Shown piece after piece: positions 32,152 to 62,997 of a stretch of 64,000 nt of DNA. Below the pieces are notes generated by a model, which saw nothing but the letters and a program-made list of their open reading frames with translations, was not told the DNA's origin and searched no databases. Position numbers and translations under genes: made by a program. Source of the stretch: a virus; the IMG/VR virus record IMGVR_UViG_3300013233_000137, positions 5,053-69,052 of that record, one strand, 5' to 3'. Numbering within the stretch: the stretch's first letter is position 1; each line of letters starts with the position of its first letter.

Positions 32152-32153
32152 AG

Positions 32154-32351: not shown

Positions 32352-32353
32352 GA

Positions 32354-32734: not shown

Positions 32735-32744
32735 GACATTCTCC

Positions 32745-33260: not shown

Positions 33261-34051
33261 TATACTAGTCCTAACTGTTGAAATTTTACAACATGTTCAA
33301 GGTTATTATCTTTAATAACCTGATGATAACAAGTTCTTAATGATTGTCCAGGCGCAAGCTCATTATCATCATTAGAACTAGCTCGAACATATTGTAAATT
33401 TCTGAAGAAATCTTCACGTTCATATCTGTGTTTATATGCTAAAAGAATCTCCATTATTAGAGAAGTAGTCTTTCTATCCTTACTTCTAAATCTCTTAAAA
33501 GTTGTTTTGCCACCAGTATGTCTGAAGTAAGAGGATGCGCATCTAAGTATTTTTCCTCCCTTGGCTTTTACCTTATAGGCCCAATCCACTTCTTCAAAAT
33601 CACCCCCTAGCCAACCATTTCGTAGTCCTATATTGTAATCCCATTTTGATTTAGTAGCTGAATGATGGGTATCTATTAGCATACAAGCTGCTGGTCCATA
33701 AGGTATTTCATTATCTTGATTAGGATTTAATTCCAATTCTTGCATTGAATGAATAACTTCTTCCTCAGTACCCCATAACTCTTGTCCAAATACTAAGGCT
33801 GCATTATTATTTTGCATGGTGGCTAGCATTTTAGGTAGCCACTCTGGATCAATCATCTCACTATCATAATCAAGAAAACATACGTATCTGGTATCAATCT
33901 TTGAAAGAATCTTCTCTCTTGCTTCAGCAACATTGATTGATGGATCAATATCTATGAGGAGTTTGAAGCCCTTAGTATATTGATTTACTAAATCAACAGT
34001 TCTATCTAACTGTATAGACTCTTTCTCAACTGGAATTGCTATAGTAATCAT
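33260..34051 (-). CDS. GT2-type glycosyltransferase
   Basis: FLDYD (DxD), FEEVDW, FRH. Confidence 0.75.
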   Translation of the reverse strand: MITIAIPVEKESIQLDRTVDLVNQYTKGFKLLIDIDPSINVAEAREKILSKIDTRYVCFLDYDSEMIDPEWLPKMLATMQNNNAALVFGQELWGTEEEVIHSMQELELNPNQDNEIPYGPAACMLIDTHHSATKSKWDYNIGLRNGWLGGDFEEVDWAYKVKAKGGKILRCASSYFRHTGGKTTFKRFRSKDRKTTSLIMEILLAYKHRYEREDFFRNLQYVRASSNDDNELAPGQSLRTCYHQVIKDNNLEHVVKFQQLGLV

Positions 34052-45463: not shown

Positions 45464-48400
45464 CTAATTCAGCTTCAATGTTCCTCGGCGTATTTGCCTT
45501 CTAAGTAATTTTCCGAATTTCGTCACATCATAATTCTCATTACCACTGCTCTGCATGGAGACATTAACATCTCCAACATTATTGTTTACAAGTCCGCCTC
45601 TAGCAAAAGGAGTGGCGTTCATGGCTACCAGTTGACTATAGAAACGCTTCGAGGAACGGGCGTTCATCACGAACTCGCCAGGACTAAGCATAGCGGGTAT
45701 TGAGTCCATACCTATCTGGCCCCCATGGGCTTTGCCTATTGTCTTAGGATTAGTCCCATTAAACTTTTGCAGCTCTTGCAGGATCTTTACAAGGGTCAAG
45801 GTCTGCTTGGGTAGTTCTTCCTTTATAACATTACTAAATCCTAGCTTTTTCTGTATGGCTTCGATCTTCTTCAAAGTTCTAGCAGACTCCCTGCCTTTCT
45901 CTAGAGTTTTCTTCTGGGCCTCTACAACCTTATTTTGAAGTGCATGTAAAGATACAATAGCCTTCCCTATCAAATCTACTGAAGGCAAAGATGTAGCCCC
46001 TATTGCCCCAGTCGCCCTCTCAAATTTACGGAGATTATCTTGCAAAGCCCCAATATTCGTGGCAGTGATGTCTTCAAATGTAGACTGGAGTTGTTTTAGT
46101 GCATCCTTTTTAACAGTTACTGGCACCACTGCCCTATCCAATAAAGTTTTAACGCTCTCAGTTATAGCATTCTTTACCCCTTCAACTCTGGCTATTGCAT
46201 CTGCACCTTGAGTTTTAAGGGCCTTTTTCTCCTTGGCAATGATCTCAAGGCGTTTCTTCAATTGATCATCAAGACCACGGAGTTTTTGCTCATTGTCATT
46301 TGCTGTAAGAAGAGCATTGAGTTGTCCTCGACGATCTGCAAGCTTCTGTTCAAGTCTAAAGCGTGTAGCCTCATCGAGTCCAGCGCCCTTCTCTGCGAGG
46401 GTCTCTCTGAAGGCTTTAATACTCTTTAAGGAGTCTTCGATATTTTTCTTCTGCTTCTTGAGATCATCTTCCTTAACAAGTCCCGTAGCAGTGATGTTGG
46501 CTACTTCAACATAGGCATCTTGGATATCAGCAATATTCTTCCTCTGAATAGCTGCTGCAGCTTCACGCTCTTGGGTAACTTTCTTAGCCTTAATACGTAG
46601 TTCTTCCTCAAACTTAATTTGGTCCTTTAGAAGTTTGAGACGCGCACTCTGAATATTGAATAATTTGACCCCTATTCCTATTTCCTTCTTCTTGGTCTTG
46701 GTCAATTGATTTACTAAATCATTTCTCTTTTTAACCAGATTAGCGATCCGTTGTTCCGAATCTGCTTGTTTCTGAAGACGGGCAGCATCAGCGGCCTGGG
46801 CTCTGGTGTTAGAGGTATCTACTATAGTCTTACCATTCTTAGTGGTAATCCCTACAGCTTCACCAGATTTACTGGCTCTACGGATTTTATCAAGGGCCTT
46901 GAGTTCATCAGAATGCTGCTTCCGACGTACTTTAGCTATATCTTCATCGGCCCGTTTTATCTTCTCACGGAGTTCCAGTTCACGTTTAGAGTTCTTGTTC
47001 GCGCCCTTCTGAATATTATCGATAAGAGTTTGAAGAGTGGCAATCTCCTTATAAGCATTTCGAGCGTCATCTACAGCCTGCTTATCGACCCCAACGTTAA
47101 TCGTGCGTAACTTCAGATTCTTGATACGGGCTTTGATGGCTTCTATCTGCCTAGTGGGATCTTCTATCTTACCAAGGACGCCTTCAAACAGTTTACGTTC
47201 AAGCTCACGGCGTAAGTCTACAATCCTATTTGCAGCATCATCCGCGAGTTTGTTGGCTTCTTTAATGGAGTCCGTGATGCCCTTTAGACCTGCTTTCAAG
47301 GACTTCTTGACCTCGCCATATGCACTGGCAATTCCTTTACCGATGTTCTTATCTAGAGCTATTTGATCATCTGAGAGTTTGAAATTCGCTGAACGTATAG
47401 CTGCAATGGCTTTAAGAGCAATAGTTTTGATCTTATCATAAGATTTGAAGGCATTGTTAACAAGTGCATCAGTGATCTTCTTGGCATCTTCAATTTGTCG
47501 TAGTCGGAATTTCTCTGAGGCCTTTGCAGCTTCCTCTAGAGATGAGGTATATGAATCTATAGCTACTTTTAATACCCCTCCAATTATGGATGCGACCACA
47601 ACAGCAATATTTAAAGAGGTAAGAGCACGTTTTAATGTCTTAGTTGCTGCTATGGCTAAGAAAATAGCTGGAACTAAAACTATCTCAAAAGCACTAGCAA
47701 GAGTCTTCACAATGGTTGTTAAAGAAATTAGTTTCCTATTCACTAAGGATAGAACTTCGACTACATCCTTACCAAAATCATTTGTGAAAAAGTTCTTGAT
47801 CTTATTGACTTCAACCTGAATATTTTTACCAGCACTTTGGAAGATGATCTTCTGAGCATTTGCAAAGGATTTTCCTGCATTTTCAATCTTCTTGAAGTTC
47901 TCTCGGTAGTCCTTCAGTCCTTTACCTGCAAAGACCATATCACCAACCGTACCACGAATACGCCTAAAGAACTTCGCAATCTCGGTACTACTTCCCTTAG
48001 TTCGTTTCTCAATTTCAGCTAGGGCCCCGCCGAATCCTAGGGCAGCAATCATTGCCTCGCCAGAGGAGAATCCCAATTCCCTAATTAGACCTTTCATCGT
48101 ATCCGTAGGACGAATGAGGCTTAGCATAACGTTACGAAGTAAGGTCTGGGCCTCATTAAAAGGTATACCTCGTTTAGTTATGGTATCAACAGCCGCACCT
48201 AATTCACTGAAACGGATATTCAACTGCTTTGCAGGTACTGCAAGTTGACCTATAGTCTGGGACATCTCATTCAGACGCACGCGGCCTAGTTCTACGATCT
48301 TAAATGCCTTGGCAGCATTCTTACCAGTTTCCTCTAAAGAGAAATTGTAAGCATTCTGAATAGCTGTTAAGAACTGCACAGCGGTTGCCGAGTCGGAGAC

Positions 48401-49474
48401 CGTAGCCAGTGCCAATCTATTGGCCTGCTCAAGGAAACCAAAGACCTCTGCACCATGGGCAACCTGATTTGAGAGAGTCTGATAGGCCGCTTCAGTTTGA
48501 TTTAGTAAATCAATTCCAAAGGAATCACTAAGCTCCCTCAATCCTCTGGCCCATTCCTCTGTAGACAATTGGTTCTGCTGGGAGATCGTACGAACCTCTG
48601 CTATCTTAATACTGAATTCCGTGGCCCTTGTTATAGACTCCTTTAACTGACTAATAAAGGTGAAGAGCACACGGCGAATAGCCTGAGCCGCAATAATACG
48701 CAGCATAGACTTCCAAGATAACGTGAACTCCGCAAGCCGTTTACCGGTTTTCTGTAGACTTCGATCTAAGGTCGGAAGGTTACCAGAAATATTAGTTATC
48801 CGGCCATTAGTTCTTGTTATTGTAGCATTGAAAGTCTTACCTTGTGCATCTAAGCCTTTCCAGGTCTCGATAAGCCTATTATTACTTGTACTAATCCTCG
48901 GAATGATCTGTAGATTCTTGAGCAATCCGCGATTACGTAAATCAGTAAGTGCAGCAAATTGAGCAGTAGCCCTAGCTACCTGGGCTTCCAACTTCTTCTG
49001 GGCATTGATTTGGGCGTGAGTGGCAAATATTTCTTTGGTCTTGACACCGAGCAATTTACCTTCTGCATCGGCATCAATAGTGATCTTCTTTGCGGCACTA
49101 TCAAGACCTTTTATTTGTTGTTTAACTAATCTATTTTGTTCATCATATGCTTTATTTTGTTCCAGAATTGTCCCTATTAGCTTCTTCCGGATAGCATTGG
49201 CATTTGCAGCTTCCTTATTGCCCTTACCAGTTGAGGGACCTAATTTAGCTTGAGTCGCAAGAAGTTGCTCAATAGTTTTTATGAGATTAGAGAGGTTAGC
49301 AGTTTTATTCACTGATTCATTAAACAGAGCTGCTTGCTTAGTGAATACCTCCATAGCGGAGTTTACAGCTATTAAGGCATCTCTTAATGTATTTAATTTC
49401 GTAGCAGAGTCTCCGACATTGAAAACAATGTCGGCTCCAAACTGCTCAATGCCATACCATAATCTATATCTCAT
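45464..49474 (-). CDS. Tape measure protein
   Basis: 1336 aa, helical/coiled-coil, hydrophobic mid-segment, C-terminal DSIPAMLSPGEFV. Confidence 0.9.
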   Translation of the reverse strand: MRYRLWYGIEQFGADIVFNVGDSATKLNTLRDALIAVNSAMEVFTKQAALFNESVNKTANLSNLIKTIEQLLATQAKLGPSTGKGNKEAANANAIRKKLIGTILEQNKAYDEQNRLVKQQIKGLDSAAKKITIDADAEGKLLGVKTKEIFATHAQINAQKKLEAQVARATAQFAALTDLRNRGLLKNLQIIPRISTSNNRLIETWKGLDAQGKTFNATITRTNGRITNISGNLPTLDRSLQKTGKRLAEFTLSWKSMLRIIAAQAIRRVLFTFISQLKESITRATEFSIKIAEVRTISQQNQLSTEEWARGLRELSDSFGIDLLNQTEAAYQTLSNQVAHGAEVFGFLEQANRLALATVSDSATAVQFLTAIQNAYNFSLEETGKNAAKAFKIVELGRVRLNEMSQTIGQLAVPAKQLNIRFSELGAAVDTITKRGIPFNEAQTLLRNVMLSLIRPTDTMKGLIRELGFSSGEAMIAALGFGGALAEIEKRTKGSSTEIAKFFRRIRGTVGDMVFAGKGLKDYRENFKKIENAGKSFANAQKIIFQSAGKNIQVEVNKIKNFFTNDFGKDVVEVLSLVNRKLISLTTIVKTLASAFEIVLVPAIFLAIAATKTLKRALTSLNIAVVVASIIGGVLKVAIDSYTSSLEEAAKASEKFRLRQIEDAKKITDALVNNAFKSYDKIKTIALKAIAAIRSANFKLSDDQIALDKNIGKGIASAYGEVKKSLKAGLKGITDSIKEANKLADDAANRIVDLRRELERKLFEGVLGKIEDPTRQIEAIKARIKNLKLRTINVGVDKQAVDDARNAYKEIATLQTLIDNIQKGANKNSKRELELREKIKRADEDIAKVRRKQHSDELKALDKIRRASKSGEAVGITTKNGKTIVDTSNTRAQAADAARLQKQADSEQRIANLVKKRNDLVNQLTKTKKKEIGIGVKLFNIQSARLKLLKDQIKFEEELRIKAKKVTQEREAAAAIQRKNIADIQDAYVEVANITATGLVKEDDLKKQKKNIEDSLKSIKAFRETLAEKGAGLDEATRFRLEQKLADRRGQLNALLTANDNEQKLRGLDDQLKKRLEIIAKEKKALKTQGADAIARVEGVKNAITESVKTLLDRAVVPVTVKKDALKQLQSTFEDITATNIGALQDNLRKFERATGAIGATSLPSVDLIGKAIVSLHALQNKVVEAQKKTLEKGRESARTLKKIEAIQKKLGFSNVIKEELPKQTLTLVKILQELQKFNGTNPKTIGKAHGGQIGMDSIPAMLSPGEFVMNARSSKRFYSQLVAMNATPFARGGLVNNNVGDVNVSMQSSGNENYDVTKFGKLLRRQIRRGTLKLN

Positions 49475-49477
49475 AAT

Positions 49478-49996
49478 TTATCCTACACTTATGACTGTTT
49501 TAAGAAGAGGTTTCTGATTTAGTAAATCACGTAGAACAGGGAATAAAGTGCTTACAATATACTTCTCTGTTTCTTCTCCTGCTTCATCCAGTGTTTGCCA
49601 AGGTGTATTCTTTATCTCTGTAGCCTCTTCCTCATTCTCAAGTAAGTAGTTAATCCCATTATGTTTATTCAGATCTTCGACCCATGATCTAAGAGAAAAA
49701 CCATATTCCTTAGAGTCCTTGAAAAATCTAGCAGAGCCTTGTCCTATGCCTGTCTGTCTGGTTTTCCCTTTACGGTTAGGTTCTTGAATGTCTGGATACT
49801 GAATAGTTACACCTACAATTATGGCTGCACGTGTTAAAGAGGCTCTAGCTTGGCCAGTCCAAGTAGGTATTGAATAGGCAACCCCTTGAACAAAATATTG
49901 TGCTGCATCTTTTAACATGAAACGAATAACTTCATCTAAAAGATTTGGAAACTCAGGATTTATACTTGGCATCTTAGATCGAACTATCCACTTCAT
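49478..49996 (-). CDS. Neck/tail completion-like protein
   Basis: IPTWTGQARAS resembles the P..TG.L..S motif of HK97 gp10-like proteins. Confidence 0.5.
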   Translation of the reverse strand: MKWIVRSKMPSINPEFPNLLDEVIRFMLKDAAQYFVQGVAYSIPTWTGQARASLTRAAIIVGVTIQYPDIQEPNRKGKTRQTGIGQGSARFFKDSKEYGFSLRSWVEDLNKHNGINYLLENEEEATEIKNTPWQTLDEAGEETEKYIVSTLFPVLRDLLNQKPLLKTVISVG

Positions 49997-50223
49997 ATCT
50001 GAACCCCTTGAGAATTGGCCAAGATCTCCATCTCCTCATGCTCCCTGATCTGATTATATGCTATCAGGAGAGCTTGTGCCCATACATTACAGTCTTCCCA
50101 CTTATTATCAATACCTGTTGGCAAAACCGCAAAACGTTCACAGGCCCTCCATTCAGCATATGCCTCTTTCCGGAACTGGGGGAAGATAGCTTTCCTTACT
50201 CCTTCCCCTGACCAGCTAAAAAA
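49993..50223 (-). CDS. Tail assembly chaperone -1 frameshift extension (gpT-like)
   Basis: Slippery T-TTT-TTA at 50223-50217; -1 frame open to a TGA at 49993 that overlaps the next ATG. Confidence 0.75.
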   Translation of the reverse strand, partial: FFSWSGEGVRKAIFPQFRKEAYAEWRACERFAVLPTGIDNKWEDCNVWAQALLIAYNQIREHEEMEILANSQGVQI

Positions 50224-50660
50224 TGTTTCAGTGCCTCTTGAATCTTGACATCATTAAGACCTTGAGCCTGGGAGATCGCAGCCACAATGCGGAATATCTC
50301 GGACTCAGTGAAGAACGAGGCTTTAAGCTCTTCCTCGAACTTATCCCAAGTCTCTGGTTTCCCCATATCAATGGTGTTCCATTCCAGCCCCTCAGTGGCC
50401 TCAAGACTCTTTAGGCACATCCAGTTATATTTCAAAGTAGAATGCCTATTAACCTTCTCTAAATAGTCTTTGTCATTGATGTCTACAGACTTATCCCCAC
50501 CTGGACGAATAACCTCTGGAGGTTTAGGACTCGGGCAGAGTTTCTCGAATTCTGAGTAATCTAATACGGCCTGTGCTCTAAGGAAGAACTCCTCACCATT
50601 ACGAATGAAAGGAATAACTTCAACATTCGGACACTTAAACTCTGTACCATTAATCTTCAT
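50196..50660 (-). CDS. Tail assembly chaperone (gpG-like)
   Basis: Follows the tail tube gene and ends just after the slippery site. Confidence 0.75.
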   Translation of the reverse strand: MKINGTEFKCPNVEVIPFIRNGEEFFLRAQAVLDYSEFEKLCPSPKPPEVIRPGGDKSVDINDKDYLEKVNRHSTLKYNWMCLKSLEATEGLEWNTIDMGKPETWDKFEEELKASFFTESEIFRIVAAISQAQGLNDVKIQEALKHFLAGQGKE

Positions 50661-50684
50661 ATTATTTCCTCGGCTAGATAAAAT

Positions 50685-50724
50685 CCCTCCCAGAAATTGA
50701 TTTACTAAATCAATCCTGGGAGGG
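50685..50724 (-). terminator. Hairpin after the tail tube gene with the palindrome as apical stem
   Basis: CCCTCCCAG-(palindrome at 50698)-CTGGGAGGG then ATTTT on the minus strand. Confidence 0.6.
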
Positions 50725-50730
50725 TTAAAA

Positions 50731-51249
50731 TTACTGTCGGACATCTACCGCTTGAGTAGCATTACACTGACCAGTCACCGCTACAGTACCTGCACGCAGA
50801 TCATGTGCCAAACTTGTATAACGGAAATCTGGCAAAGTAATAACCTCATCAAGTTCTCCACCACAAGGAGGCACATAGTGGACCTCTACGTCCACAGCAA
50901 AGGGCTCACAAGGGTCACTTGAGCTACTAACCCAGGCTGAAGCCTCACCGCGCTGTTTAAGTACGTCTTCGATAGTTGGGGTACCAGCACCCGTGGTACT
51001 AACTGCCTTCAGAAATTCCCATGTGAAGTCAAAACGAACATCCATGGGCTCCTCATCCCCCTCTTTAACGGTATCAAGAACACTACGATTGAGAACGTAG
51101 TTGATATTCCGTTTCTCGTCATAGGTGAGATTTCCTTCACCAATCTTTACCTCGAGGGACTGCTGGGCAGAACCAGTGCCACCATCTTTAAGGTATACTG
51201 TGGCATTCTTCAAATCAATCTGTGCCCCATACCAATTTCTAATTCGCAT
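50731..51249 (-). CDS. Major tail tube protein
   Basis: Position before chaperone and tape measure; 172 aa; start MRIRNWYG after AGGAG. Confidence 0.7.
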   Translation of the reverse strand: MRIRNWYGAQIDLKNATVYLKDGGTGSAQQSLEVKIGEGNLTYDEKRNINYVLNRSVLDTVKEGDEEPMDVRFDFTWEFLKAVSTTGAGTPTIEDVLKQRGEASAWVSSSSDPCEPFAVDVEVHYVPPCGGELDEVITLPDFRYTSLAHDLRAGTVAVTGQCNATQAVDVRQ

Positions 51250-51253
51250 ATTC

Positions 51254-52039
51254 TTACTCCTTCGCAAGAACCATATGATAATGTCTCTCAATACTTGCCA
51301 TGAGGATATCATCTGATGGTTGTAATTGTCCAAAATGACTTATTTGAAGCCGTCTTCTGAAACCATCCATAGCATGTAAACATTCTATGAATGTGCTGTC
51401 ATCGAGAACTCCATTGCCATACTTATACACCTCAATATCATTAGTAAAAATTGCAGCTACAGCATCGGTAACTCGTCTAATAGCATGGAAATCTTGATCA
51501 CTTTTAGCCACTGTGACAATGGTGTTCACCTCAACAATCAAATCCCACCATCCCTTCTGATATTGCGTATAAAATGGCCCATCTACACGGAGTTCAAAGA
51601 ACTGTTGGAAATCTTGAGTCTGACGCTGTTCCCCTTCGAGAAACATATGTAGACTACCTCGATTTGCCTCGAAGTGTTGACAAATTGAAGCATAGCACCA
51701 TCGGCCCCAATTAGGGTCGATACCGCCACTCAAAGTACCCCCTGATATTACGAAGTCTACGGAGTCACTAACTGTCCCAGGTGAACCAGTGAGCATTATA
51801 CGTGCCGTATAATTCCCAGCAGCTAATCCTGTTATCTCAATAATACCGTCCCCAATTCTTGATCCAATTTGTCTCCATACACTCTTCCCCTGAAGAGTTA
51901 TAAGAAGACTATTGGTATAAATTGGTCCGGTATTGGATATTGTAGCAGTCGTACCTACGATATTAAGAATGGGAGTAGGTATGCTCGTGCCACTTTGACC
52001 TATAGCACGTAAGATTTGACCAAAGGTTGTAGGCATCAC
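51254..52039 (-). CDS. Tail terminator-like protein with extra N-terminal beta domain
   Basis: Directly upstream of the tail tube gene. Confidence 0.5.
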   Translation of the reverse strand: MMPTTFGQILRAIGQSGTSIPTPILNIVGTTATISNTGPIYTNSLLITLQGKSVWRQIGSRIGDGIIEITGLAAGNYTARIMLTGSPGTVSDSVDFVISGGTLSGGIDPNWGRWCYASICQHFEANRGSLHMFLEGEQRQTQDFQQFFELRVDGPFYTQYQKGWWDLIVEVNTIVTVAKSDQDFHAIRRVTDAVAAIFTNDIEVYKYGNGVLDDSTFIECLHAMDGFRRRLQISHFGQLQPSDDILMASIERHYHMVLAKE

Positions 52040-53076
52040 TACTCCAAGTAATTTCCAATTAAGTCATTGACACTAACTACATTAGTACCATCTGCCTGTG
52101 TCAAGTTCTTACGGTATAATTCAACGGCTGTTCCTCGCTGGTAATAGACGGCTTGCCAAGGTGTGGCCGTGGTATCTACTCCAACATCGCACTCTACCGA
52201 CTTCTGAATGGTACCTTGGTTGGCAAGCACCGTGGTTTGGTTTGCTGCGGTTGCGTATTCTGAAGCAAGCAAAGTCCTTGCTGTCATTTCCGCATTGGTC
52301 GGTCCATCGTATGAAAGCAAAGCAGAAGAACATTGTGCCAAAACGTCCGCAGTGGAAATATCATTAAGACCATTTACCAATGCAGCATTAGCAAGCACAT
52401 TATTATTGATAGTGGTCTGATTTGCATCAGTGGCGTAGTTTGCTGCCAGCAAAGTTCGTGCAACCATCTCAGCATTGGTCGGACCATCATATGTATTAAG
52501 CGCGGATGAGCATTGTGCTAAGACATCGCCGGTTGAAATATCGTTCAATGCATTTATCAAAACAGCATTGGCAAGAACATTGCCGTCTATTGTGGATTGC
52601 CCTGCTGCAGTCGCGTAACTAGCCGCAAGCAGAGTTCTGGCATTCATCTCTGCATTAGTTGGCCCATCGTACGTGTTCAATGCTGAGGTGCATTGTGCTA
52701 GGACATCGCCTGTGGAGATATTATTCAATGCATTTATCAGAACTGCATTCGCGGCAATCGAAGCATCAACATTGGCGCCTGGGAATGCGGTTGAGTCAGA
52801 AAGAATGGCATCCCGAATATCCGTCCTAAAACTATCATTCCCTGCAAACACATATCGGTCTGGCGCTGTCAATGCGGCAGTACCATCACACCGAATGGCG
52901 TAATCCAAGGTTGGGTCGTACGTAGTAAAATCATACTTATACCAACCGTCACCAATCTCGGTCATTGCAGCATCCGTCACCACCAATGCACCAGTAGCCA
53001 CATTACGAATTCTGATAGTGGGCGATAATCCTGTAGCCGGTGTGCCTGTATTAGTAAAGTATGCGACTATATTCAT
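52039..53076 (-). CDS. Virion protein with three 60-aa repeats
   Basis: ANA.L.N.LN.IST.DVLAQC.SAL..YDGPTNAEM.ARTLLA..YAT x3, 180-bp DNA period. Confidence 0.75.
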   Translation of the reverse strand: MNIVAYFTNTGTPATGLSPTIRIRNVATGALVVTDAAMTEIGDGWYKYDFTTYDPTLDYAIRCDGTAALTAPDRYVFAGNDSFRTDIRDAILSDSTAFPGANVDASIAANAVLINALNNISTGDVLAQCTSALNTYDGPTNAEMNARTLLAASYATAAGQSTIDGNVLANAVLINALNDISTGDVLAQCSSALNTYDGPTNAEMVARTLLAANYATDANQTTINNNVLANAALVNGLNDISTADVLAQCSSALLSYDGPTNAEMTARTLLASEYATAANQTTVLANQGTIQKSVECDVGVDTTATPWQAVYYQRGTAVELYRKNLTQADGTNVVSVNDLIGNYLE

Positions 53077-53082
53077 ATCAAA

Positions 53083-53262
53083 TTACCTCGCAATAAAAGA
53101 TACCTGTGGGACATTGCCTTGCTGACAAATCAGCATTGAGACGTTGAGCAGGATGCCGTCCGCTTCGGCTTCAGCCACCAACTTCTTGAGCCTGGCTGTA
53201 TATTCATCAACCAATTTTTGCTTCTGCTCCTGGATTATTTCTGTAGGTTTTTTCTCGCTCAT
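53083..53262 (-). CDS. Hypothetical protein (59 aa, not in ORF track)
   Basis: MSEKKPTEII...; AGGAG RBS, ATGA overlap. Confidence 0.55.
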   Translation of the reverse strand: MSEKKPTEIIQEQKQKLVDEYTARLKKLVAEAEADGILLNVSMLICQQGNVPQVSFIAR

Positions 53263-53681
53263 ATGTCTATCGCTCCTGAGAATTTGTTGGCGTCGATCTG
53301 CTTCTTGGTGACGTCAACTTCAGCACCATCGACCAAAACATACACAGTCCCATCCGCGCGTTGAGTGCCTTGCTCAACTGGATATTCATTGGCGTTGACA
53401 TCAACCCAGATGATATTATTAGATGCGTCAATAGCATCGGTCATCTGAGGTTTTTTGATCTCTGTGTATACGTCCGACATAGCAACCAATTCTGCAACGG
53501 GAAACGTCACAACCTGCTCACTATAGATAATAGCATTGAGATCCGCTTGGCGGGTTGCAGAATCTTTATACAGATCAAGACGAACTGTAAGACTGCCTGC
53601 AAACCGGTCATAAACAATCAGGCCAATTCTCCAATAGTTTGCGATAAACCCCTTGATTGTTTCCTGTAATTGCAATGCCAT
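53259..53681 (-). CDS. Hypothetical fibre-associated protein
   Basis: ORF with AGGAGA RBS. Confidence 0.6.
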   Translation of the reverse strand: MALQLQETIKGFIANYWRIGLIVYDRFAGSLTVRLDLYKDSATRQADLNAIIYSEQVVTFPVAELVAMSDVYTEIKKPQMTDAIDASNNIIWVDVNANEYPVEQGTQRADGTVYVLVDGAEVDVTKKQIDANKFSGAIDI

Positions 53682-53689
53682 TTTATCTC

Positions 53690-54682
53690 CTATACAATAC
53701 TGGTTATTAGGCCATTGGTGACCGTGACAGTTTTGCCGTCAGTCGTTGTGAATGTTCCACTTGCTCCAGCCACACCGCCAACTTGATATGCCACAGCATT
53801 TGCAGTACCGAGTATGTCTGCAATACCTGTGCCGACTTCTTTTGGATTTATCTTGAGGTCAGTGCCATCATAATAAATTGAGGCATCTGCATTCTGCCCA
53901 AACATGACTTTGGCGTTATCTGTAAAATATGCACCACCCCATTTACCAGTTACAAGATCTCCTGTATGTTTTCCAAGTTTTCCTGTTATGGCTTGAGGGT
54001 ATATTGAGGCCCCATAGGTAGTATCCTCATAAAAATGGAACATATTCATTGCACCACTTGACCGCCCAAATATAATATCAGCAGGATTCGCATCAGTGCC
54101 CGTAGCCTCTGTCATAAACTGAGGTCCACTGGGAAGAATACCTAACCTTGTCCCAGTGGCACCTGCAGTGGTTTGAAACCAAATCACACCAAGTGTATTT
54201 GTCTGTAGTACCCCGCCTGCAAATATTCCACCAGTCCCCGAATTCGAGAAATCCAGCATGCCAATATCGGCACCAAAAGACCCCAATCCAGTAGCAACAT
54301 TAAAGCTGCATATCTCATTGACGCCGGATTTGATCCTCACTACCTTGGCGCCGGTAGTCCCTAGATTATTAGTTGCAATTAAATCAAAACCAATTGCACT
54401 CGCGCCATCAACTACATCTGTCCTGGCCTGGAATGTATATGCACCTGCTTGGATTGCACCCGCTTGATTCGATACTTGAATCGGGTCTGACGCAATGATT
54501 AACCCACGTGTTGCATGAGCAGTGGATTGTAGCGTAAGATTCTCGCCTGCTGCAATGCCGCCAATCTGTACTTGCCCTCCTGCTCGTCCTGCAAGCAGAG
54601 TATATTGAGTATGGTCATCATCAGCCAAACCAATGAGCACGCCATGGTCAAGATTAGATGTAGGCTTTCGCGTGATTATCAT
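53690..54682 (-). CDS. Fibre/decoration protein
   Basis: DHG.L.GLADDDHTQY N-terminus, Gly-rich body, GKTVTVTNGLITSI C-terminus. Confidence 0.65.
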   Translation of the reverse strand: MIITRKPTSNLDHGVLIGLADDDHTQYTLLAGRAGGQVQIGGIAAGENLTLQSTAHATRGLIIASDPIQVSNQAGAIQAGAYTFQARTDVVDGASAIGFDLIATNNLGTTGAKVVRIKSGVNEICSFNVATGLGSFGADIGMLDFSNSGTGGIFAGGVLQTNTLGVIWFQTTAGATGTRLGILPSGPQFMTEATGTDANPADIIFGRSSGAMNMFHFYEDTTYGASIYPQAITGKLGKHTGDLVTGKWGGAYFTDNAKVMFGQNADASIYYDGTDLKINPKEVGTGIADILGTANAVAYQVGGVAGASGTFTTTDGKTVTVTNGLITSIV

Positions 54683-55104
54683 TACACCACTCCAAGAGAG
54701 TCTATTAAAGCTATTTTTGATATGTCAGACATCACATTCATATGAGGATATTTTCTTTTATATTCCTTACGTATCTTCTCGCTCCTTGAGTAGGCTACAT
54801 ACGGAATATTCGTATCTTCTATCTCCTCTACTACTCTTTGATTTACTAAATCAATATTAACTAGGGCACAAATTATATCTTTTTGATTGCGGCGTAAAAC
54901 AAAGATCGCATCTTCATTGGTATCGGCACATTTACTATCCATATTGCGGTAGCTAAGAGCCTTCCTTAAATAGGAACTTACGCTCCAATCATTATCTACT
55001 ATAAGGCAAAATCCTTCTGTGCAAGTCATCTGACGAATTATTACACGCGTATTTTGAGCCTTCAAGAAATAGGAGTCCACGATCTTTTTATCAAGCATCT
55101 TCAA
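54682..55104 (-). CDS. Degenerate response-regulator receiver-like protein
   Basis: CLIVDND, ALVNIDL, IPYVAYS spaced as in the REC fold. Confidence 0.5.
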   Translation of the reverse strand: MKMLDKKIVDSYFLKAQNTRVIIRQMTCTEGFCLIVDNDWSVSSYLRKALSYRNMDSKCADTNEDAIFVLRRNQKDIICALVNIDLVNQRVVEEIEDTNIPYVAYSRSEKIRKEYKRKYPHMNVMSDISKIALIDSLGVV

Positions 55105-55315
55105 CCCTCGTGCAAGCAGTCATAACATCTTTAACTTCTACCATAAGGCCATTACAAGCGCGTACTAACTCAGCTAAACTCCCCATTAATTCTTTACTCT
55201 CGGAGAGTAGGGACTCGACTTGACCTTGTTGGCGAATATTTTGTTTATATAAAACCCCTATTGTTGCGGCCAGAGCACCTACAACAGAGAGTATAACTGA
55301 TAAAGGTATCATCAT
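55091..55315 (-). CDS. Small membrane protein with coiled coil
   Basis: N-terminal TM helix. Confidence 0.55.
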   Translation of the reverse strand: MMIPLSVILSVVGALAATIGVLYKQNIRQQGQVESLLSESKELMGSLAELVRACNGLMVEVKDVMTACTRVEDA

Positions 55316-55330
55316 GATGGTCGTTCCTTA

Positions 55331-55615
55331 TTATTGGCTAATACGTACAACTGCATTTCCACTGATGTACTCCCCGGACTTGAAACCTATACGGTAATGT
55401 ATACCTTGTTCTGGATCATCACCTACTTTTTGACCACTGGCAGTGAATTGGTATATATCATACCAGTTTGCCCCATCGAAAGAACGTTGGAGGGTTATTG
55501 TTCCAGCCCATGTTCCAGCTACAGAAACATTAAAGGTCGAAGCAGGTAACTGTACTACGGCCCACTGATCTGCACCAGTAAGCGTGGCTTCAACCTCTGC
55601 AATTGCATTACTCAT
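55331..55615 (-). CDS. Small beta-sandwich virion protein
   Basis: VSVAGTWAGTITLQRSFDG. Confidence 0.6.
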   Translation of the reverse strand: MSNAIAEVEATLTGADQWAVVQLPASTFNVSVAGTWAGTITLQRSFDGANWYDIYQFTASGQKVGDDPEQGIHYRIGFKSGEYISGNAVVRISQ

Positions 55616-56100
55616 GATTGTGCTCCCTCGAAAAATGTTATTTGGGCATTCATTGTTTTATTATGCCATTCAAATGGCAAGGCATTCTCTGTCTCATTGG
55701 CGGTGAAGTACACCGCAAGTCTATGGTCATAGAAGTTTATTTCCTTCATCTCAAAACGTCTATGCTCATATACTACGCTCCAACCAAGGTCGATAGTTTT
55801 ATCTTTTGGGACATCACGCAGTTCAATAATGAAATCTCTAACTCCTAAGTCATAATAAGCACCATATTGGAAGTTCTTATTTGCCGCCAAGAAAGTTAAG
55901 TCATACGAGAATTTACGCGTAAGTCTTTTCGGAAGCAAAATAGCTCGCTTTACAGGTATGACCTCATAGGACTTAACTACCTCTCCAGTCTTTACATCAT
56001 TACTAACACTTGTGACCTTATACAGATATACCTTTGTGCCATACTCTCTCTTGAGTCGGTACAAAACGCGTCGCATTTGGATTTTGCCTGTATAAGACAT
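55612..56100 (-). CDS. Head closure-like protein
   Basis: First gene after the capsid gene; start MSYTGK. Confidence 0.55.
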   Translation of the reverse strand: MSYTGKIQMRRVLYRLKREYGTKVYLYKVTSVSNDVKTGEVVKSYEVIPVKRAILLPKRLTRKFSYDLTFLAANKNFQYGAYYDLGVRDFIIELRDVPKDKTIDLGWSVVYEHRRFEMKEINFYDHRLAVYFTANETENALPFEWHNKTMNAQITFFEGAQS

Positions 56101-56108
56101 ACTATTCC

Positions 56109-56231
56109 TTTTGATTTGGCCTCGGCCTTCTTTTGATTTGGCCTTGGCCTTCTTTTGATTTGGTAAATCAATGGCCGCGTAGCGGCGTAAATCAATGGGC
56201 CGCGTAGCGGCGTAAAGAAACGCCGCGTAGC
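56109..56231. repeat. Half-site array around TGATTTGGTAAATCA (56156)
   Basis: TGATTT at 56112, 56134, 56156; AAATCA at 56165, 56189; GC-rich spacers. Confidence 0.88.
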
Positions 56232-56240
56232 AGAAAATGG

Positions 56241-56268
56241 TGGGAGGCCGACCTGGGCCGGCCTCCCA
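56241..56268 (-). terminator. Terminator-like hairpin after the capsid gene
   Basis: TGGGAGGCCG...CGGCCTCCCA. Confidence 0.65.
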
Positions 56269-56278
56269 GCCGATGGCA

Positions 56279-57661
56279 CTAGCCGAGGAGCACAGCACCA
56301 AGATTCGTATCCAGAACCTTCACGCCACCCAGCAGATCGACAGTAACCAAATGACCCTGGTTATTGCCATCATAGGTGATGGTGGTACGAATTGCAATAT
56401 TATTGTAATTCGCAACAGCAGAAAGGGCACCAGCACCAGGACGCGGAGTCGCAAGAGGCCGACTGACAAAGGCAATGGCATTCCGATGGAAAGCGAAGTT
56501 ATAGCTTCCAGCAGGACCAATATTCACGGTGACATTATCAGCAATAGCAGCTTCCAGAGGACGATCAAGAGTGATACCAGTAGTACCAGTAACATCAATA
56601 ATCGTGTATACAGCAGTCGCAGTTGAAGTACCGAATGCCACAAACTGTCCAACCTGTGGAGCAACTGAGAACCCGTCAACGACAATTTCCTTGGCCCAAT
56701 TAGCAGCATAGCCCGCTACCAAATTAACTGCCCCAGGGGTATAGATGGTGATGACTGCATTATCTACAACCGCAGTCTTCAGACCAGTCAGAACAGTAAT
56801 GGCAGTCGGGGTAGCACCACCAACGGTGGACACAACTCGCAGAGGAGTCATATCGCCTGCAATGGTGATATAGCTACCTGCCGAGATCGCTGCACTGAAA
56901 CCATCAACCGTAAAGGTCTTGACTCCAACTGCATACCCTGCAGCATTGTTAATTGCCCCGGTAACAGTGGTATTACCAATTGAGACATAAGGCATATTCT
57001 GAGCCATGAAGTTATTAAAGCCCAGTTTACGCCCCATGCTCGCTTCCCGCAATGCCGTACCATTGTCTCCAACCTTATCAGCGGTGAGGAAGATATCGGT
57101 ATTAAGGGCTTCAGTCTCGCCATCAGAGTTCCAAATGAGGTTACGGCCATTGACAAACGCCTTATTCTCATTCATAACCTTACGAGTATCAAGCATATAC
57201 TGCTTAGCAGTGGTACTTGAAAGGCCACCAAGAATACCTGCACTGTTCGCAAGGAACTGAGGATACTGACCAAGCACGACCTGATCAAGGGCACTGGCAA
57301 TGGAGATGACCGCGGGCTCCAAATGGGTGGTGACCAGGTCCTTCATGGACTTCGATTCCTCACCGTCATAAATCATGAAACTGGTATGGAAATGCTGGTC
57401 CAACTTGACCTGAATATCAGTGGTATTCGCAGCCTGAACGGTGACCGAATCTGAATCAGTTTTCCGTTTAGCAGTAAAAGACCCGGGTTGACTGGTGTGA
57501 ACCATATCGCCAAACCTCGCAATCTCATCAGAGAAATCGCGGTGAACCAAATTGGTAACCACCATATTCTCAGTCAGAATTGCGAGTGCCTCATTCGACC
57601 AGATCTCCGGAATGAGGGCATCATTAGAGTTACCATACCACAGTCTGTTACGTTTGAACAT
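56279..57661 (-). CDS. Major capsid protein (P22-coat-like, with inserted beta domains)
   Basis: LIPEIWS, LVHRDFS, GDMV, NFAFHRNAIAFVSRPL, DLLGGVK. Confidence 0.88.
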   Translation of the reverse strand: MFKRNRLWYGNSNDALIPEIWSNEALAILTENMVVTNLVHRDFSDEIARFGDMVHTSQPGSFTAKRKTDSDSVTVQAANTTDIQVKLDQHFHTSFMIYDGEESKSMKDLVTTHLEPAVISIASALDQVVLGQYPQFLANSAGILGGLSSTTAKQYMLDTRKVMNENKAFVNGRNLIWNSDGETEALNTDIFLTADKVGDNGTALREASMGRKLGFNNFMAQNMPYVSIGNTTVTGAINNAAGYAVGVKTFTVDGFSAAISAGSYITIAGDMTPLRVVSTVGGATPTAITVLTGLKTAVVDNAVITIYTPGAVNLVAGYAANWAKEIVVDGFSVAPQVGQFVAFGTSTATAVYTIIDVTGTTGITLDRPLEAAIADNVTVNIGPAGSYNFAFHRNAIAFVSRPLATPRPGAGALSAVANYNNIAIRTTITYDGNNQGHLVTVDLLGGVKVLDTNLGAVLLG

Positions 57662-57670
57662 GTTGCTCTC

Positions 57671-58480
57671 CTATATTTTACTGAGGTCAATCTTGCCCTC
57701 TTTACGGGCCTTAAGATATTCCTCTGTAGTCATCTTCGCGGGGTTTACACTACCTCCGCCAGTATCACCCTGAGTATTCATTCCCAAGCCACCTTTGACA
57801 TTGGATTTGAAGAGGTTACCATACTTCTCAGGCATCTTCTTCATTACTTCCACTGCCTCATTGACTTTAAGATCCAACTCAGTATCTTTACCATCTTGAT
57901 CTTTACCAGTGATCTTGACCCGTGAGACCAAGTTCCCTGTGGGATTACCGTCCTTATCCAATTCATCAGTTAAGGTCGTATTTGGACGCAAGATCGCAAC
58001 AATTTGTTCAGGGGAAAACGCATCACTTGCAACAGCTGCATCCGTTATAGTTCGTTGAATAGTCTCTCCAGTGTATCTATTTTGGAGAGACTCTAATTGA
58101 TTTTGTAAATCAGAAATCTTCTTCTCATTCTCGGCTTTGATTGCTTCCTCATTCTGTTTGGCCAGCTCCTCTTTGGTCTTGAGGCTATCTGAGAGCTCCT
58201 TAACACGCTTCTGAAGGGTGATCTTCTCTTCAGCGGTTAGAGAACCTGACTTGGCCTCTGAGAGTTGTCCTTCAAGCTCTGTAACCTTCGTCTGCAAATT
58301 ACGACGATTCTTTGCCATAATTGCATTGACTTCATCCTGAGTGAAGGTCTTAACTGGCGGATCTCCTGCTGGCGGATCTCCTGCTGGCGGATCTCCTGCT
58401 GGCGGATCTCCTGCTGGCGGATCTCCTGCTCCAGTATCCTCACCATACCACAAACGGCTCCTCGGCATTTCCTCGTACAT
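57671..58480 (-). CDS. Head scaffolding protein
   Basis: KTFTQDEVNAI, coiled coil, C-terminal MTTEEYLKARK; upstream of the capsid gene. Confidence 0.85.
   Translation of the reverse strand: MYEEMPRSRLWYGEDTGAGDPPAGDPPAGDPPAGDPPAGDPPVKTFTQDEVNAIMAKNRRNLQTKVTELEGQLSEAKSGSLTAEEKITLQKRVKELSDSLKTKEELAKQNEEAIKAENEKKISDLQNQLESLQNRYTGETIQRTITDAAVASDAFSPEQIVAILRPNTTLTDELDKDGNPTGNLVSRVKITGKDQDGKDTELDLKVNEAVEVMKKMPEKYGNLFKSNVKGGLGMNTQGDTGGGSVNPAKMTTEEYLKARKEGKIDLSKI
58354..58428. repeat. 15-bp tandem repeat x5 (AGDPP)
   Basis: CTGGCGGATCTCCTG x5. Confidence 0.95.
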
Positions 58481-58490
58481 TCCTATTCTC

Positions 58491-58937
58491 CTATGTTGCC
58501 CTATTAACCTGCATCGTCTCTGGGTCATCTAAATACGGCTTCAAATATTGCCAAGCTAAGGAGCTAGGAATACCGGCCAAAAGATGCTCTGGAACGAATG
58601 AACGGTCATAGGTAGACCTCGCACTTGCGAGTCCTTGTGATTTCATACTTAATAATTCCACTTCACGCTCAGGCTCGATACCATCAAGCAATGCAAATGC
58701 GGCTTCGGCGCAGGCATACTGGATATCGTCGGGGATCGTGGTGTCGTCATAGCGCGGAAACTGATTTGCTTGGGTATCACTATTCTTCCTACCAACGAAA
58801 TTCAGTCTATCAATACGTATCGTGGACTCTGCGAGGGCTTTGGTCTTATCGGCATCACTAGCATTATCCCAGGAATCCACATTATATCTGGAAGTGAAAT
58901 AGGTATCGGCATCAGCTACGGTAATATATGCAGTCAT
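58491..58937 (-). CDS. Head-tail adaptor (DnaT-like family)
   Basis: YITVADADTYF, QFPR, IQYACAE, LKPYL. Confidence 0.75.
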   Translation of the reverse strand: MTAYITVADADTYFTSRYNVDSWDNASDADKTKALAESTIRIDRLNFVGRKNSDTQANQFPRYDDTTIPDDIQYACAEAAFALLDGIEPEREVELLSMKSQGLASARSTYDRSFVPEHLLAGIPSSLAWQYLKPYLDDPETMQVNRAT

Positions 58938-62502: not shown

Positions 62503-62997
62503 TCAGGGCGCCACGGTTATCCGGTTCATGGCCGCCGTTATCTGGGCCGCGACCTTGGCTACCGCTTCCTCGTCCTGAACCTCGGCTACGATGATCTGGA
62601 TAATCTCGTCAGCCAACTGGATTGCCTTGTTACGGTCAAGCAACTGACCCAGATTTATATCCAATTTGTTGGTGCTCATGACCAGGCGTTCAATACTATT
62701 GACTAATGTGCTAATCTGGGTGCTTGCCAGAAGCAGATCGTGCTCATCCTTACAGCGATTCAAGCATGTCTCCAGCACCATACGCAGAACTCCAACCTCT
62801 TCACTCAGGGTTTTCAGGGCGGAGTTCGTAGATAGCTCCTCAAAACGGCTTTTGAACCGCGTCAACTGGTAGTTGAATACTTTTTTCCTTTCCTTCTGCT
62901 CCTTCTCAATGGTGTTATGTGTCTCGCAATACTGGAAGCCTTCGGGGGCCTCGTTTTTGCACGGTCCGAACTGGGTAGTGTATTGGCAGAGACTCAT
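62503..62997 (-). CDS. Terminase small subunit candidate
   Basis: Upstream of terL; N-terminal C...C...YCETH; helical body. Confidence 0.6.
   Translation of the reverse strand: MSLCQYTTQFGPCKNEAPEGFQYCETHNTIEKEQKERKKVFNYQLTRFKSRFEELSTNSALKTLSEEVGVLRMVLETCLNRCKDEHDLLLASTQISTLVNSIERLVMSTNKLDINLGQLLDRNKAIQLADEIIQIIVAEVQDEEAVAKVAAQITAAMNRITVAP

What the first reader, a model, noticed from the sequence alone, without database searches (positions are those of the whole stretch)
49451..58480. Shared N-terminal R-x-W-Y-G leader on capsid, scaffold, tail tube and tape measure proteins
Seen: capsid MFKRNRLWYG-NSND, scaffold MYEEMPRSRLWYG-EDTG, tail tube MRIRNWYG-AQID, tape measure MRYRLWYG-IEQF. Codons differ between copies, so the constraint is on the protein. 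Known: staphylococcal phage 80alpha capsid and scaffold carry an L27-like leader cleaved by the host protease Prp. Inference: an analogous but different leader, extended here to tail proteins, for proteolytic licensing of assembly, for targeting, or as a recognition tag for the modification enzymes.
Basis: partly seen in the sequence, partly recalled or inferred. Interest (0 to 1): 0.85.

Follow-up and report, generated by a model that had tools for sequence, protein, structure and literature searches.

The report
Shared removable-looking leader on virion proteins
Four building blocks of this uncultured phage's particle (scaffold, coat, tail tube and tape measure) start with the same short add-on tag, one variant of a tag system found throughout a large group of uncultured phages; it looks like a clip-off assembly leader, but no cutting enzyme is known and no cut has been shown.

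Summary
In a 69-kb phage genome, R-x-W-Y-G lies at the N-terminus of exactly four proteins: scaffold, P22-type coat, a protein I show has a tail-tube fold, and the tape measure. Codons differ, and 0 of 2000 shuffles reach four.

It is one subtype of a family-wide N-terminal module. 121 of 137 related coat proteins and 63 of 117 related tube proteins carry a 7-37 residue leader. The rest start Met-Ala exactly at the leader boundary. The leader sequence co-varies among a phage's own virion proteins. Two phages lack it on every protein I examined. In two close relatives it also sits on the portal and a tail fibre.

The best reading (about 55%) is a cleavable pro-leader that works like the Prp/L27 leader of staphylococcal phage 80alpha, but it is not a member of that system. 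The motif differs. Five Planctomycetota genomes carrying related prophages have no Prp and a short L27. No protease family was found in this phage or in a complete relative. Cleavage itself is untested, and this phage's host is unknown.

Earlier reports of this scan describe the same kind of leader in Planctomycetes phages. The cysteine hydrolase I took to be their candidate cutter is absent from this clade.

The parts
58442..58480 (-). Scaffold leader, 13 codons (M-Y-E-E-M-P-R-S-R-L-W-Y-G)
   Evidence: It is followed by an acidic, Gly/Pro-rich repeat, as in relatives' scaffolds.
57671..58480 (-). Head scaffolding protein (269 aa from the M-Y-E-E start)
   Evidence: phrog_206, head scaffolding protein, E 3e-15. 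It has homologues in 73 of 90 related loci.
57632..57661 (-). Coat-protein leader, 10 codons (M-F-K-R-N-R-L-W-Y-G)
   Evidence: The phrog_283 match starts at residue 11. Leaderless homologues start M-A-N at this boundary.
56279..57661 (-). Major capsid protein, P22-coat type (460 aa)
   Evidence: Pfam PF11651, E 1.1e-22. phrog_283, E 4.5e-56.
51226..51249 (-). Tail-tube leader, 8 codons (M-R-I-R-N-W-Y-G)
   Evidence: In the AF2 model, residues 4-10 have pLDDT below 50. 53 of 117 homologues start M-A-Q-I-D-L-K at this boundary.
50731..51249 (-). Tail tube protein (172 aa)
   Evidence: AF2 mean pLDDT 80.3, pTM 0.72. Foldseek against the PDB gives tail-tube proteins as top hits: HFTV1 tail 9fkb (E 1.3e-4), P74-26 tube 8ed0, lambda V 7t2e. 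The gene lies upstream of two chaperone-position genes and the tape measure.
49451..49474 (-). Tape-measure leader, 8 codons (M-R-Y-R-L-W-Y-G)
   Evidence: The frame opens one codon upstream of the ATG. The same leader type is on the tape measures of L055 and L178.
45464..49474 (-). Tape measure protein (1336 aa)
   Evidence: Pfam PF10145, E 1.8e-20. phrog_23013, E 3e-24.
58934..60687 (-). Portal protein, leaderless here (probable start M-I-Y-Q-V-K-H-P)
   Evidence: phrog_145. The upstream frame holds no leader. The homologue in L055 carries M-R-S-R-Y-W-Y-G.

Best explanation
The R-x-W-Y-G peptide is a short N-terminal pro-leader carried by several self-assembling virion proteins of this siphovirus. 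It is one subtype of a leader system used by a large lineage of uncultured phages with P22-type coats.

**Proposed mechanism (inferred).** The proteins are made with the leader. A single recognition partner, most likely a cytoplasmic endopeptidase, binds the shared motif. It cuts just after it: after Gly in the W-[YFVI]-G subtype, and after the aromatic Phe/Tyr in the commoner subtypes. This releases mature proteins whose N-termini equal those of leaderless homologues after Met removal (A-Q-I-D-L-K..., A-N-D-N-D-A-L...). As in phage 80alpha, the leader may also matter before it is cut, for folding or for ordered assembly.

**Shown here.**
- The leader is translated.
- It is a precise add-on module.
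- It is gained, lost and changed in a coordinated way among a phage's own virion proteins.
- The Prp/L27 system is not available in the hosts identified for relatives.

**Not shown.** The cut itself, the identity of the enzyme (host or phage) and the host of this phage.
For: 1. **Precise module boundary.** 13 of 137 anchored coat homologues and 53 of 117 tube homologues start Met-Ala exactly where the leaders of the others end. 121 coat and 63 tube homologues carry leaders of 7-37 and 8-26 residues (sequences).

2. **Conserved cut-site-like positions.**
- Tube family: the last leader residue is F 24, Y 23, G 13 or H 3 of 63, and the next residue is A in 48 of 63.
- Coat family: the last leader residue is Y 35, F 31 or G 15 of 121, and the next is A 45 or D 28.

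3. **Co-variation within genomes.** Scanning the N-termini of all ORFs of 90 aa or more in 21 loci, using the coat-leader probes of the 19 loci where a coat was recognised, gave:
- at least 24 bits in 14 of 352 own-locus ORFs, against 31 of 6773 ORFs of other loci;
- the top own-locus hits were scaffold, tube, portal and tape measure (examples).

4. **Same subtype in relatives.**
- The record of L178 is a complete 84-kb genome. It has R-x-W-Y-G on scaffold, coat, tube, tape measure and a tail fibre.
- The record of L055 has it on those five and on the portal.
- A DNA pattern for R-x-W-[YF]-G hits 6 and 6 sites, all on the coding strand. 6 of 6 and 5 of 6 of them are protein N-termini. The reversed-pattern control gives 0-1.

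5. **Coordinated absence.**
- L069 has leaderless portal, scaffold, coat, tube and tape measure.
- L195 has leaderless scaffold, coat, tube and tape measure.

6. **Disorder.** The leader is disordered in the tube model (pLDDT about 45 for residues 1-10).

7. **Precedent.** In 80alpha, host Prp cuts F|A and removes 13-14 residues from coat and scaffold. The same motif occurs on a tail protein of phi13 (PMC5744158, passages). In distant Firmicute-associated relatives of this coat family, 2 of 17 loci have a canonical L-x-L-Q-L-F|A motif at the scaffold N-terminus.
Against: - No cleavage has been observed. No cultured relative exists in the phage collection: tblastn with the tube found nothing among 50,697 records, and all 90 coat matches are below 60% identity, at most 31.4% among the rows listed.
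- No protease was found in this genome, which is only about 75% complete by the tool's estimate. Searched without result: Prp, C39, C39_2, S78, ClpP, C1 and C92. Pfam or PHROGs scans of the ORFs examined showed no peptidase. Several small ORFs remain without any family.
- None of Prp, S78, ClpP, C1 or C92 was found in the complete relative G407.
- Across 90 related loci no non-structural gene is conserved in the structural module.
- Five Planctomycetota genomes holding related prophages lack Prp (0 of 5 over the cut-off; the weak hits are non-coding frames). Their L27 starts M-A-H-K-K-G in 5 of 5.
- A strict leader pattern found no host gene carrying the leader in two of those genomes: only the two prophage sites in each matched.
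- In 80alpha itself cleavage is dispensable. So a shared leader need not mean that the cut is the functional point.
- At the rigid alignment offset, only 66 of 121 coat leaders have an aromatic as their last residue.
Confidence: 0.55

Rival explanations
1. The leader is a retained N-terminal docking tag. It is not cut. It binds a common partner, such as a chaperone, the scaffold or portal, or a host factor, that coordinates folding or ordered assembly of the oligomerising virion proteins.
For: - No protease was found.
- In 80alpha the scaffold leader is required for assembly while its cleavage is not (PMC5744158).
- Within-genome co-variation fits any common binding partner, not only a protease.
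Against: - Leaderless homologues start Met-Ala exactly at the boundary, and the residue after the leader is conserved. That pattern is expected of a cut site.
- Whole phages do without the leader (L069 and L195).
- A tag kept on coat, tube, tape measure and fibre alike would have to be tolerated in very different assemblies.
Confidence: 0.25
2. The leader is a recognition tag, like a RiPP leader, for the phage's modification enzymes. These are the glycosyltransferase, radical SAM and methyltransferase genes at 28681-34051.
For: - A radical SAM gene is present in this genome and in 3 of 5 relatives' records searched, including both records of the W-Y-G subtype.
- Weak NCBIfam matches of the radical SAM protein include peptide maturases.
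Against: - All NCBIfam matches lie far below their cut-offs and are mixed with MoaA, viperin and QueE-like families.
- No radical SAM gene was found in two leader-bearing records. Those records are only 60-75% complete.
- None lies in the 20-kb structural regions of the Planctomycetota prophages that carry leaders.
- The cluster looks like a sugar pathway.
Confidence: 0.07
3. The leader is a targeting signal. A short basic-aromatic peptide sends virion proteins to a membrane patch, condensate or other assembly site.
For: The leaders are basic at the start and hydrophobic or aromatic at the end. No other evidence.
Against: They are too short and too variable for a Sec/Tat signal or a typical amphipathic anchor. 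Close leaderless relatives exist. Nothing was found that would receive the signal.
Confidence: 0.05
4. The motif is an artefact: a chance match, wrongly placed start codons, or a DNA or RNA signal that happens to be read as peptide.
For: None beyond the fact that W has a single codon and Y was TAT in all four copies.
Against: - 0 of 2000 shuffles reach four copies.
- There are no alternative start codons.
- The R, L and G codons differ.
- The peptide is conserved in relatives at 76-83% protein identity and on further proteins.
Confidence: 0.01

Closest known systems
Prp-dependent N-terminal leaders of Staphylococcus phage 80alpha coat and scaffold, shared with host ribosomal protein L27 (PMC5744158; PMC9405229)
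   Same: - A short N-terminal extension shared by non-homologous virion proteins of one phage.
- It sits directly before a mature start that leaderless homologues reach by Met removal.
- An aromatic residue lies at or next to the boundary, followed by a small or acidic residue.
- The staphylococcal motif is also noted on a tail protein (phi13).
- No prohead protease gene is present, and the phage has a separate scaffold.
   Different: - The motif is R-x-W-Y-G (..P-V-F, ..L-V-Y, ..C-Y in relatives), not L-x-L-Q-F-F|A.
- The identified hosts of relatives (Planctomycetota) lack Prp and have a short L27.
- No host protein with the leader was found.
- The set of tagged proteins is wider: tape measure here, plus portal and tail fibre in close relatives.
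- Cleavage has not been demonstrated.
Propeptides removed by phage prohead proteases (HK97 delta domain, T4 gp21 L/I-x-E sites, phiKZ/SPN3US-type head proteins)
   Same: N-terminal pieces of several virion proteins share a recognition motif.
   Different: - Those proteases are phage-encoded, sit next to the capsid gene and act inside the prohead on head proteins.
- Here S78, ClpP-like and other protease families were not found.
- Tail proteins carry the tag too.
Leaders of the same kind reported earlier in this scan on Planctomycetes phages (e1-6002708, e1-6121091, e1-5798644, e1-6107882, e1-5344264)
   Same: - The same coat, scaffold and tube families.
- The same add-on position.
- The same within-phage co-variation. 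My loci L012-L017 are of that type (..C-Y or ..C-F).
   Different: - This window belongs to another clade of the coat tree, with a W-[YF]-G ending and the tag on the tape measure.
- Those reports name a phage 'small cysteine peptidase' as the candidate cutter.
- I took that to be the permuted NlpC/P60-like gene between TerS and TerL. It is absent here and from 4 other records searched.

Membership tests
Prp/L27-type leader system (MEROPS C108 substrates) | Cleavage motif of the form M-L-x-x-(D/N)-L-Q-(F/L)-F|A-(S/H)-K-K or a close copy (PMC9405229) | tested here: not met
   The window leaders read R-(L/N)-W-Y-G. Only 2 of 17 distant Firmicute-associated loci show the canonical motif.
Prp/L27-type leader system (MEROPS C108 substrates) | The host (or phage) encodes Prp (PF04327) and a long L27 | tested here: not met
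   - Prp was 0 of 1 in this genome.
- It was 0 of 5 in related phage records, including one complete genome.
- It was 0 of 5 over the cut-off in Planctomycetota genomes with related prophages.
- L27 starts M-A-H-K-K-G in 5 of 5 of those genomes.
- The host of this particular phage is unknown, so for it the test is indirect.
Prp/L27-type leader system (MEROPS C108 substrates) | The leader is shared by coat and scaffold and placed directly before the mature N-terminus | tested here: met
Prp/L27-type leader system (MEROPS C108 substrates) | The leader is removed in the mature protein | not testable with these tools
   No proteomic or structural data exist for any member. Cultured relatives are leaderless or unrelated.
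Prohead-protease propeptides (S78/U35, S77, ClpP/S49-like) | A phage-encoded prohead protease gene in the head module | tested here: not met
   PF04586 and PF00574 were 0 of 3 in G000, G407 and G406. No conserved extra gene lies in the module across 90 loci. S77 and S49 were not searched.
C39 double-glycine leader peptides | A leader ending G-G (or G-A, G-S), plus a C39 peptidase | tested here: not met
   There is a single Gly after W-Y. PF03412 and PF13529 gave no match at E<=10 in the genome.
Type IV prepilin-like leaders | A basic leader ending in G, followed by a hydrophobic helix with Glu at position +5 | tested here: not met
   The sequence read directly shows the leader followed by polar sequence (N-S-N-D.., A-Q-I-D-L-K.., E-D-T-G..). 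The defining motif is recalled, not taken from a call.
P22-type coat protein (PF11651) | Pfam match above the gathering score | tested here: met
   80.8 bits against a cut-off of 24.
Siphovirus/CIS tail tube fold | A predicted fold that matches solved tail tube proteins | tested here: met
   Foldseek probability 1.00 to 9fkb, 8ed0, 7t2e and others, with TM-scores of 0.4-0.55. The model has pLDDT 80. There is no sequence-level match in the PDB.

The most novel reading that the evidence does not exclude
A previously undescribed, Prp-independent maturation system. A still unknown endopeptidase recognises a short, lineage-specific N-terminal leader that a large clade of uncultured siphoviruses places on every self-assembling virion protein: portal, scaffold, coat, tube, tape measure and fibre. 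The enzyme would be host-encoded or belong to a novel phage family. Phage leaders and enzyme specificity would co-evolve, so the leader type could serve as a host-range marker.
Probability: 0.4. Interest if true: 0.8.

Novelty: new variant of a known kind. Interest (0 to 1): 0.62.

Why it matters
N-terminal processing of phage structural proteins by a non-prohead protease is known in essentially one system: Prp in Firmicutes. Even there its purpose is unclear.

Here the same logic appears with different motifs in a large, uncultured phage lineage. Its only firmly assigned hosts, Planctomycetota, have neither Prp nor a long L27. The tag also reaches the tape measure, portal and tail fibre.

If the leaders are cut, an unknown protease awaits discovery, and a general principle follows: one leader licensing all self-assembling virion parts. 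If they are not cut, they define a new kind of assembly tag.

The leader also gives a simple sequence marker for correct start-codon annotation. It may also be a clue to the host lineage of metagenomic phages.

Tried and rejected
**Protease searches, all negative.**
- Prp as the cutter: not found in the phage, in five related phage records or in five host genomes. The weak hits were junk frames.
- S78, ClpP, C1 and C92 in G000, G407 and G406: none.
- The permuted NlpC/P60-like hydrolase of Planctomycetes phages (L012 1246-1839), which I took to be the 'small cysteine peptidase' of earlier scan reports. A profile of 25 of the 120 listed homologues (388 hits) matched only L012 and L014 among all ORFs I held. 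It matched 0 of 5 of G000, G407, G406, G408 and G409. Pfam does not recognise it.
- The neighbouring C39-like protein of L012 has a lipoprotein signal (sequence, my reading). It is therefore unlikely to act in the cytoplasm.
- The papain-family peptidase of L005 has no counterpart in any other locus held.

**Host-mimicry test.** A strict leader pattern found only the prophage sites in G003 and G004, and nothing in G001 and G002, whose leaders do not fit the pattern. A more divergent host substrate would be missed.

**Host of this phage.**
- No close prophage was found in 401 sampled Planctomycetota genomes. 6 had tube homologues, the best at 48% identity.
- The contigs labelled Saccharibacteria and Rhodoferax (L009, L010) are short MAG contigs, which I do not trust as host evidence.

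**Cultured relatives for experimental data.**
- Vibrio phage KF4: the match upstream of the annotated start is spurious.
- Streptomyces phage Keanu and Dinoroseobacter phage R5C are leaderless or nearly so.
- Anabaena phage A-4L has a 14-residue N-terminal stretch not shared with its scaffold. The passages I read in its structure paper say nothing on processing (PMC12002296).

**Host versus phage determinism.** The three prophages in one chromosome all end in ..C-Y. That leader type also coincides with one phage clade, so the two cannot be separated.

**Literature.** Searches (listings only, apart from the three papers cited) returned no description of this leader outside the staphylococcal system. 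Supplements were not consulted.


Full report
**What is there.**

The window is 64,000 of the 69,052 bases of a single-contig virus record, about 75% complete by the tool's estimate. The late operon runs on the minus strand in this order:
- a Cys-rich small protein at the terminase small-subunit position
- large terminase
- portal
- Ad1-type adaptor
- scaffold
- P22-type coat
- several small proteins
- tube
- two genes at the chaperone position
- tape measure
- tail tip and fibre genes

Four of these proteins begin with the same peptide:
- scaffold, ...M-P-R-S-R-L-W-Y-G
- coat, M-F-K-R-N-R-L-W-Y-G
- tube, M-R-I-R-N-W-Y-G
- tape measure, M-R-Y-R-L-W-Y-G

The Arg, Leu and Gly codons differ. Each start has a Shine-Dalgarno site. 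No alternative start codon lies between the motif and the conserved mature sequence. No other long ORF of the genome starts this way. Four such starts were never reached in 2000 shuffles.

The 172-residue 'tube' has no family hit. It folds with pLDDT 80 into a tail-tube fold, and its best PDB matches are all tail tubes. Its first ten residues, the leader, are modelled as disordered.

**The motif is one subtype of a family-wide module.**

The coat search returned 2588 proteins at E<=0.001, of which I looked at the best 150 representatives. The tube search returned 479 proteins at E<=0.001, of which I looked at the best 120.

I anchored on the conserved mature starts and dropped 10 coat rows shorter than 400 aa and 3 + 2 rows that did not anchor.

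| Family | Anchored | With leader | Leader length | Leaderless (start Met-Ala at the boundary) | 2-4 residue stub |
|---|---|---|---|---|---|
| Coat | 137 | 121 | 7-37, median 14 | 13 | 3 |
| Tube | 117 | 63 | 8-26 | 53 | 1 |

- In the tube family the last leader residue is F or Y in 47 of 63, G in 13 and H in 3. The next residue is A in 48.
- In the coat family the last leader residue is Y or F in 66 of 121 and G in 15. The next residue is A in 45 and D in 28.
- The G class is the W-[YFVI]-G subtype to which the window belongs.
- In that subtype the Gly is an extra residue before the usual Ala (tube W-Y-G|A-Q-I-D-L-K; coat of L055 W-F-G|A-N-D-N-D). A cut, if any, would therefore fall after Gly.

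**Leaders co-vary within a phage.**

In locus after locus the scaffold and coat share the phage's own version of the leader. So, variably, do the tube, portal and tape measure. Examples:
- ..V-W-F-T-V-F / ..S-W-Q-A-V-F / ..V-W-V-P-V-F / ..V-W-K-T-I-F in L002
- ..L-Y-L-S-R-P-W-F-G-C-Y / ..L-Y-L-S-R-P-F-V-A-C-Y in L017
- ..R-Q-A-Y-F in both proteins of L197

I ran an unbiased scan with each coat leader against the first 40 residues of every ORF of 90 aa or more. It covered 21 loci after I dropped 5 near-duplicate loci, with coat-leader probes from the 19 loci where a coat was recognised. It scored at least 24 bits in 14 of 352 own-locus ORFs against 31 of 6773 ORFs of other loci. The cross-locus hits include related phages with the same leader type, so the contrast is conservative.

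Two phages are leaderless throughout the proteins I could see:
- L069: portal, scaffold, coat, tube and tape measure
- L195: scaffold, coat, tube and tape measure

The leader therefore behaves as a property of the phage, not of single genes.

**The W-Y-G clade.**

| Relative | Identity to the window | Record | Proteins carrying the leader |
|---|---|---|---|
| L055 (G406) | coat 76%, tube 83% | partial | portal, scaffold, coat, tube, tape measure, tail fibre |
| L178 (G407) | not measured | complete 84-kb genome with terminal repeats | scaffold, coat, tube, tape measure, tail fibre |

A DNA pattern for R-x-W-[YF]-G hits each record six times, always on the coding strand. 6 of 6 and 5 of 6 of those hits are protein N-termini. 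The reversed-pattern control gives 0-1. In the window the portal and the fibre homologue are leaderless.

**Hosts, and the Prp question.**

The one genome-collection scan found related prophages inside long Planctomycetota contigs and chromosomes (Thermoguttaceae, Pirellulales and others). All of them carry ..C-[YF] leaders. More distant, mostly leaderless relatives turned up in Clostridia and Actinobacteria.

- In five of those Planctomycetota genomes Prp is not found over the cut-off (0 of 5). The sub-threshold hits are non-coding frames.
- L27 starts M-A-H-K-K-G in all five.
- A strict version of the leader found only the two prophage genes in each of two host genomes.
- Three prophages in one chromosome all end in ..C-Y. 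That type also forms one clade of the coat tree together with all Planctomycetota prophages (quick tree). Host-determined and phage-determined specificity therefore cannot be told apart.
- The host of the W-Y-G clade remains unknown.

**Search for a cutter.**

- No Prp, C39, C39_2, S78, ClpP, papain-family or C92 peptidase is detectable in this genome.
- Except for the C39 families, which I searched only in this genome, none is detectable in the complete relative either.
- Pfam or PHROGs scans gave no peptidase. They covered 45 ORFs at once plus about 50 single submissions, with overlap between them. In one search only 25 of 30 matched families were displayed.
- Across 90 related loci the conserved genes are only the structural core.

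Earlier reports of this scan on Planctomycetes phages name a phage 'small cysteine peptidase' as the best candidate. I took this to be the permuted NlpC/P60-like gene between TerS and TerL.
- Its profile matches L012 and L014, which serves as the positive control.
- It matches none of G000, G407, G406, G408 or G409.
- It is also missing from the TerS-TerL interval of L001, L002, L005 and L178, all of which have leaders.

That gene therefore cannot be the general cutter. At most it serves one clade.

**Comparison with the known system.**

In 80alpha, host Prp cuts F|A and removes 13-14 residues from coat and scaffold. The scaffold leader is needed for assembly, but cleavage is dispensable. The motif is also seen on the phi13 major tail protein (PMC5744158, passages).

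The architecture here is the same: an add-on before the mature start, an aromatic residue at the boundary, sharing among non-homologous virion proteins, and no prohead protease. In 2 of 17 distant Firmicute-associated relatives of this coat family, the scaffold carries a canonical L-x-L-Q-L-F|A motif.

Membership in the Prp system fails on both motif and enzyme. I therefore file this as a new variant of a known kind: it works like the Prp leader but is not part of the Prp system.

**Verdict.**
- The best explanation is a cleavable pro-leader with an unknown protease (0.55).
- The main rival is a retained docking tag (0.25).
- The modification-tag idea is unsupported but not excluded.

No paper describing this leader came up in five searches.

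Noticed in passing
whole window, e.g. 50699-50713, 59782-59796; also L201/L203 (record G407): The 15-bp palindrome TGATTTA[C/G]TAAATCA occurs about 38 times in the 69-kb genome, inside genes (read as D-L-[VL]-N-Q) and between them. The same peptide trace (D-F-D-L-V-N-Q-F) lies just upstream of the fibre gene in the complete relative.
   Followed up: no
54682-55104 (-): A 140-aa protein sits inside the structural module and by eye resembles a degenerate CheY-like receiver domain. Pfam gives only a weak OKR_DC_1_N match. Homologues lie at the same place in L055, L178, L057 and the leaderless L069.
   Followed up: partly
2496-3020 (-) and 12153-12830 (-): Two sigma-70-like proteins have weak region 2 and region 4 matches below the Pfam cut-offs.
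   Followed up: no
58340-58430 (-), inside the scaffold gene: Directly after the leader, the scaffold has five tandem copies of G-D-P-P-A. Relatives have Ala-, Gly- or Asp/Glu-rich low-complexity runs at the same place.
   Followed up: no
52039-53076 (-): A 345-aa protein between head and tail genes has three copies of a repeat of about 55 residues (..N-A-L-N-x-I-S-T-G-D-V-L-A-Q-C-S-S-A-L-N-T-Y-D-G-P-T-N-A-E-M..) and no family hit. It is absent from L055.
   Followed up: no
L069 5268-5657 versus window 62503-62997: In the all-leaderless phage L069, the small protein at the TerS position lacks the N-terminal Cys-rich (zinc-ribbon-like) segment. That segment is present in the window and in other leader-bearing phages. 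This is a single case, and the region is not covered in L195.
   Followed up: partly
L005 2326-3138: A papain-family peptidase (PF00112, E 8.6e-11) lies between TerS and TerL of a leader-bearing relative. It itself begins M-I-K-S-K-R-F-Y-G. No counterpart exists in the other loci held.
   Followed up: partly
41654-43384 (-): The tail-fibre homologue has an Mtd_N-like motif at about residue 56 and a different, longer N-terminus without a leader. Its homologues in G406 and G407 start with M-R-N-R-I-W-Y-G and M-R-I-R-N-W-Y-G directly before that motif.
   Followed up: yes
G001 chromosome: L012, L172, L173: One Thermoguttaceae chromosome carries three prophages of this family. Two of them are near-identical to each other.
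   Followed up: partly
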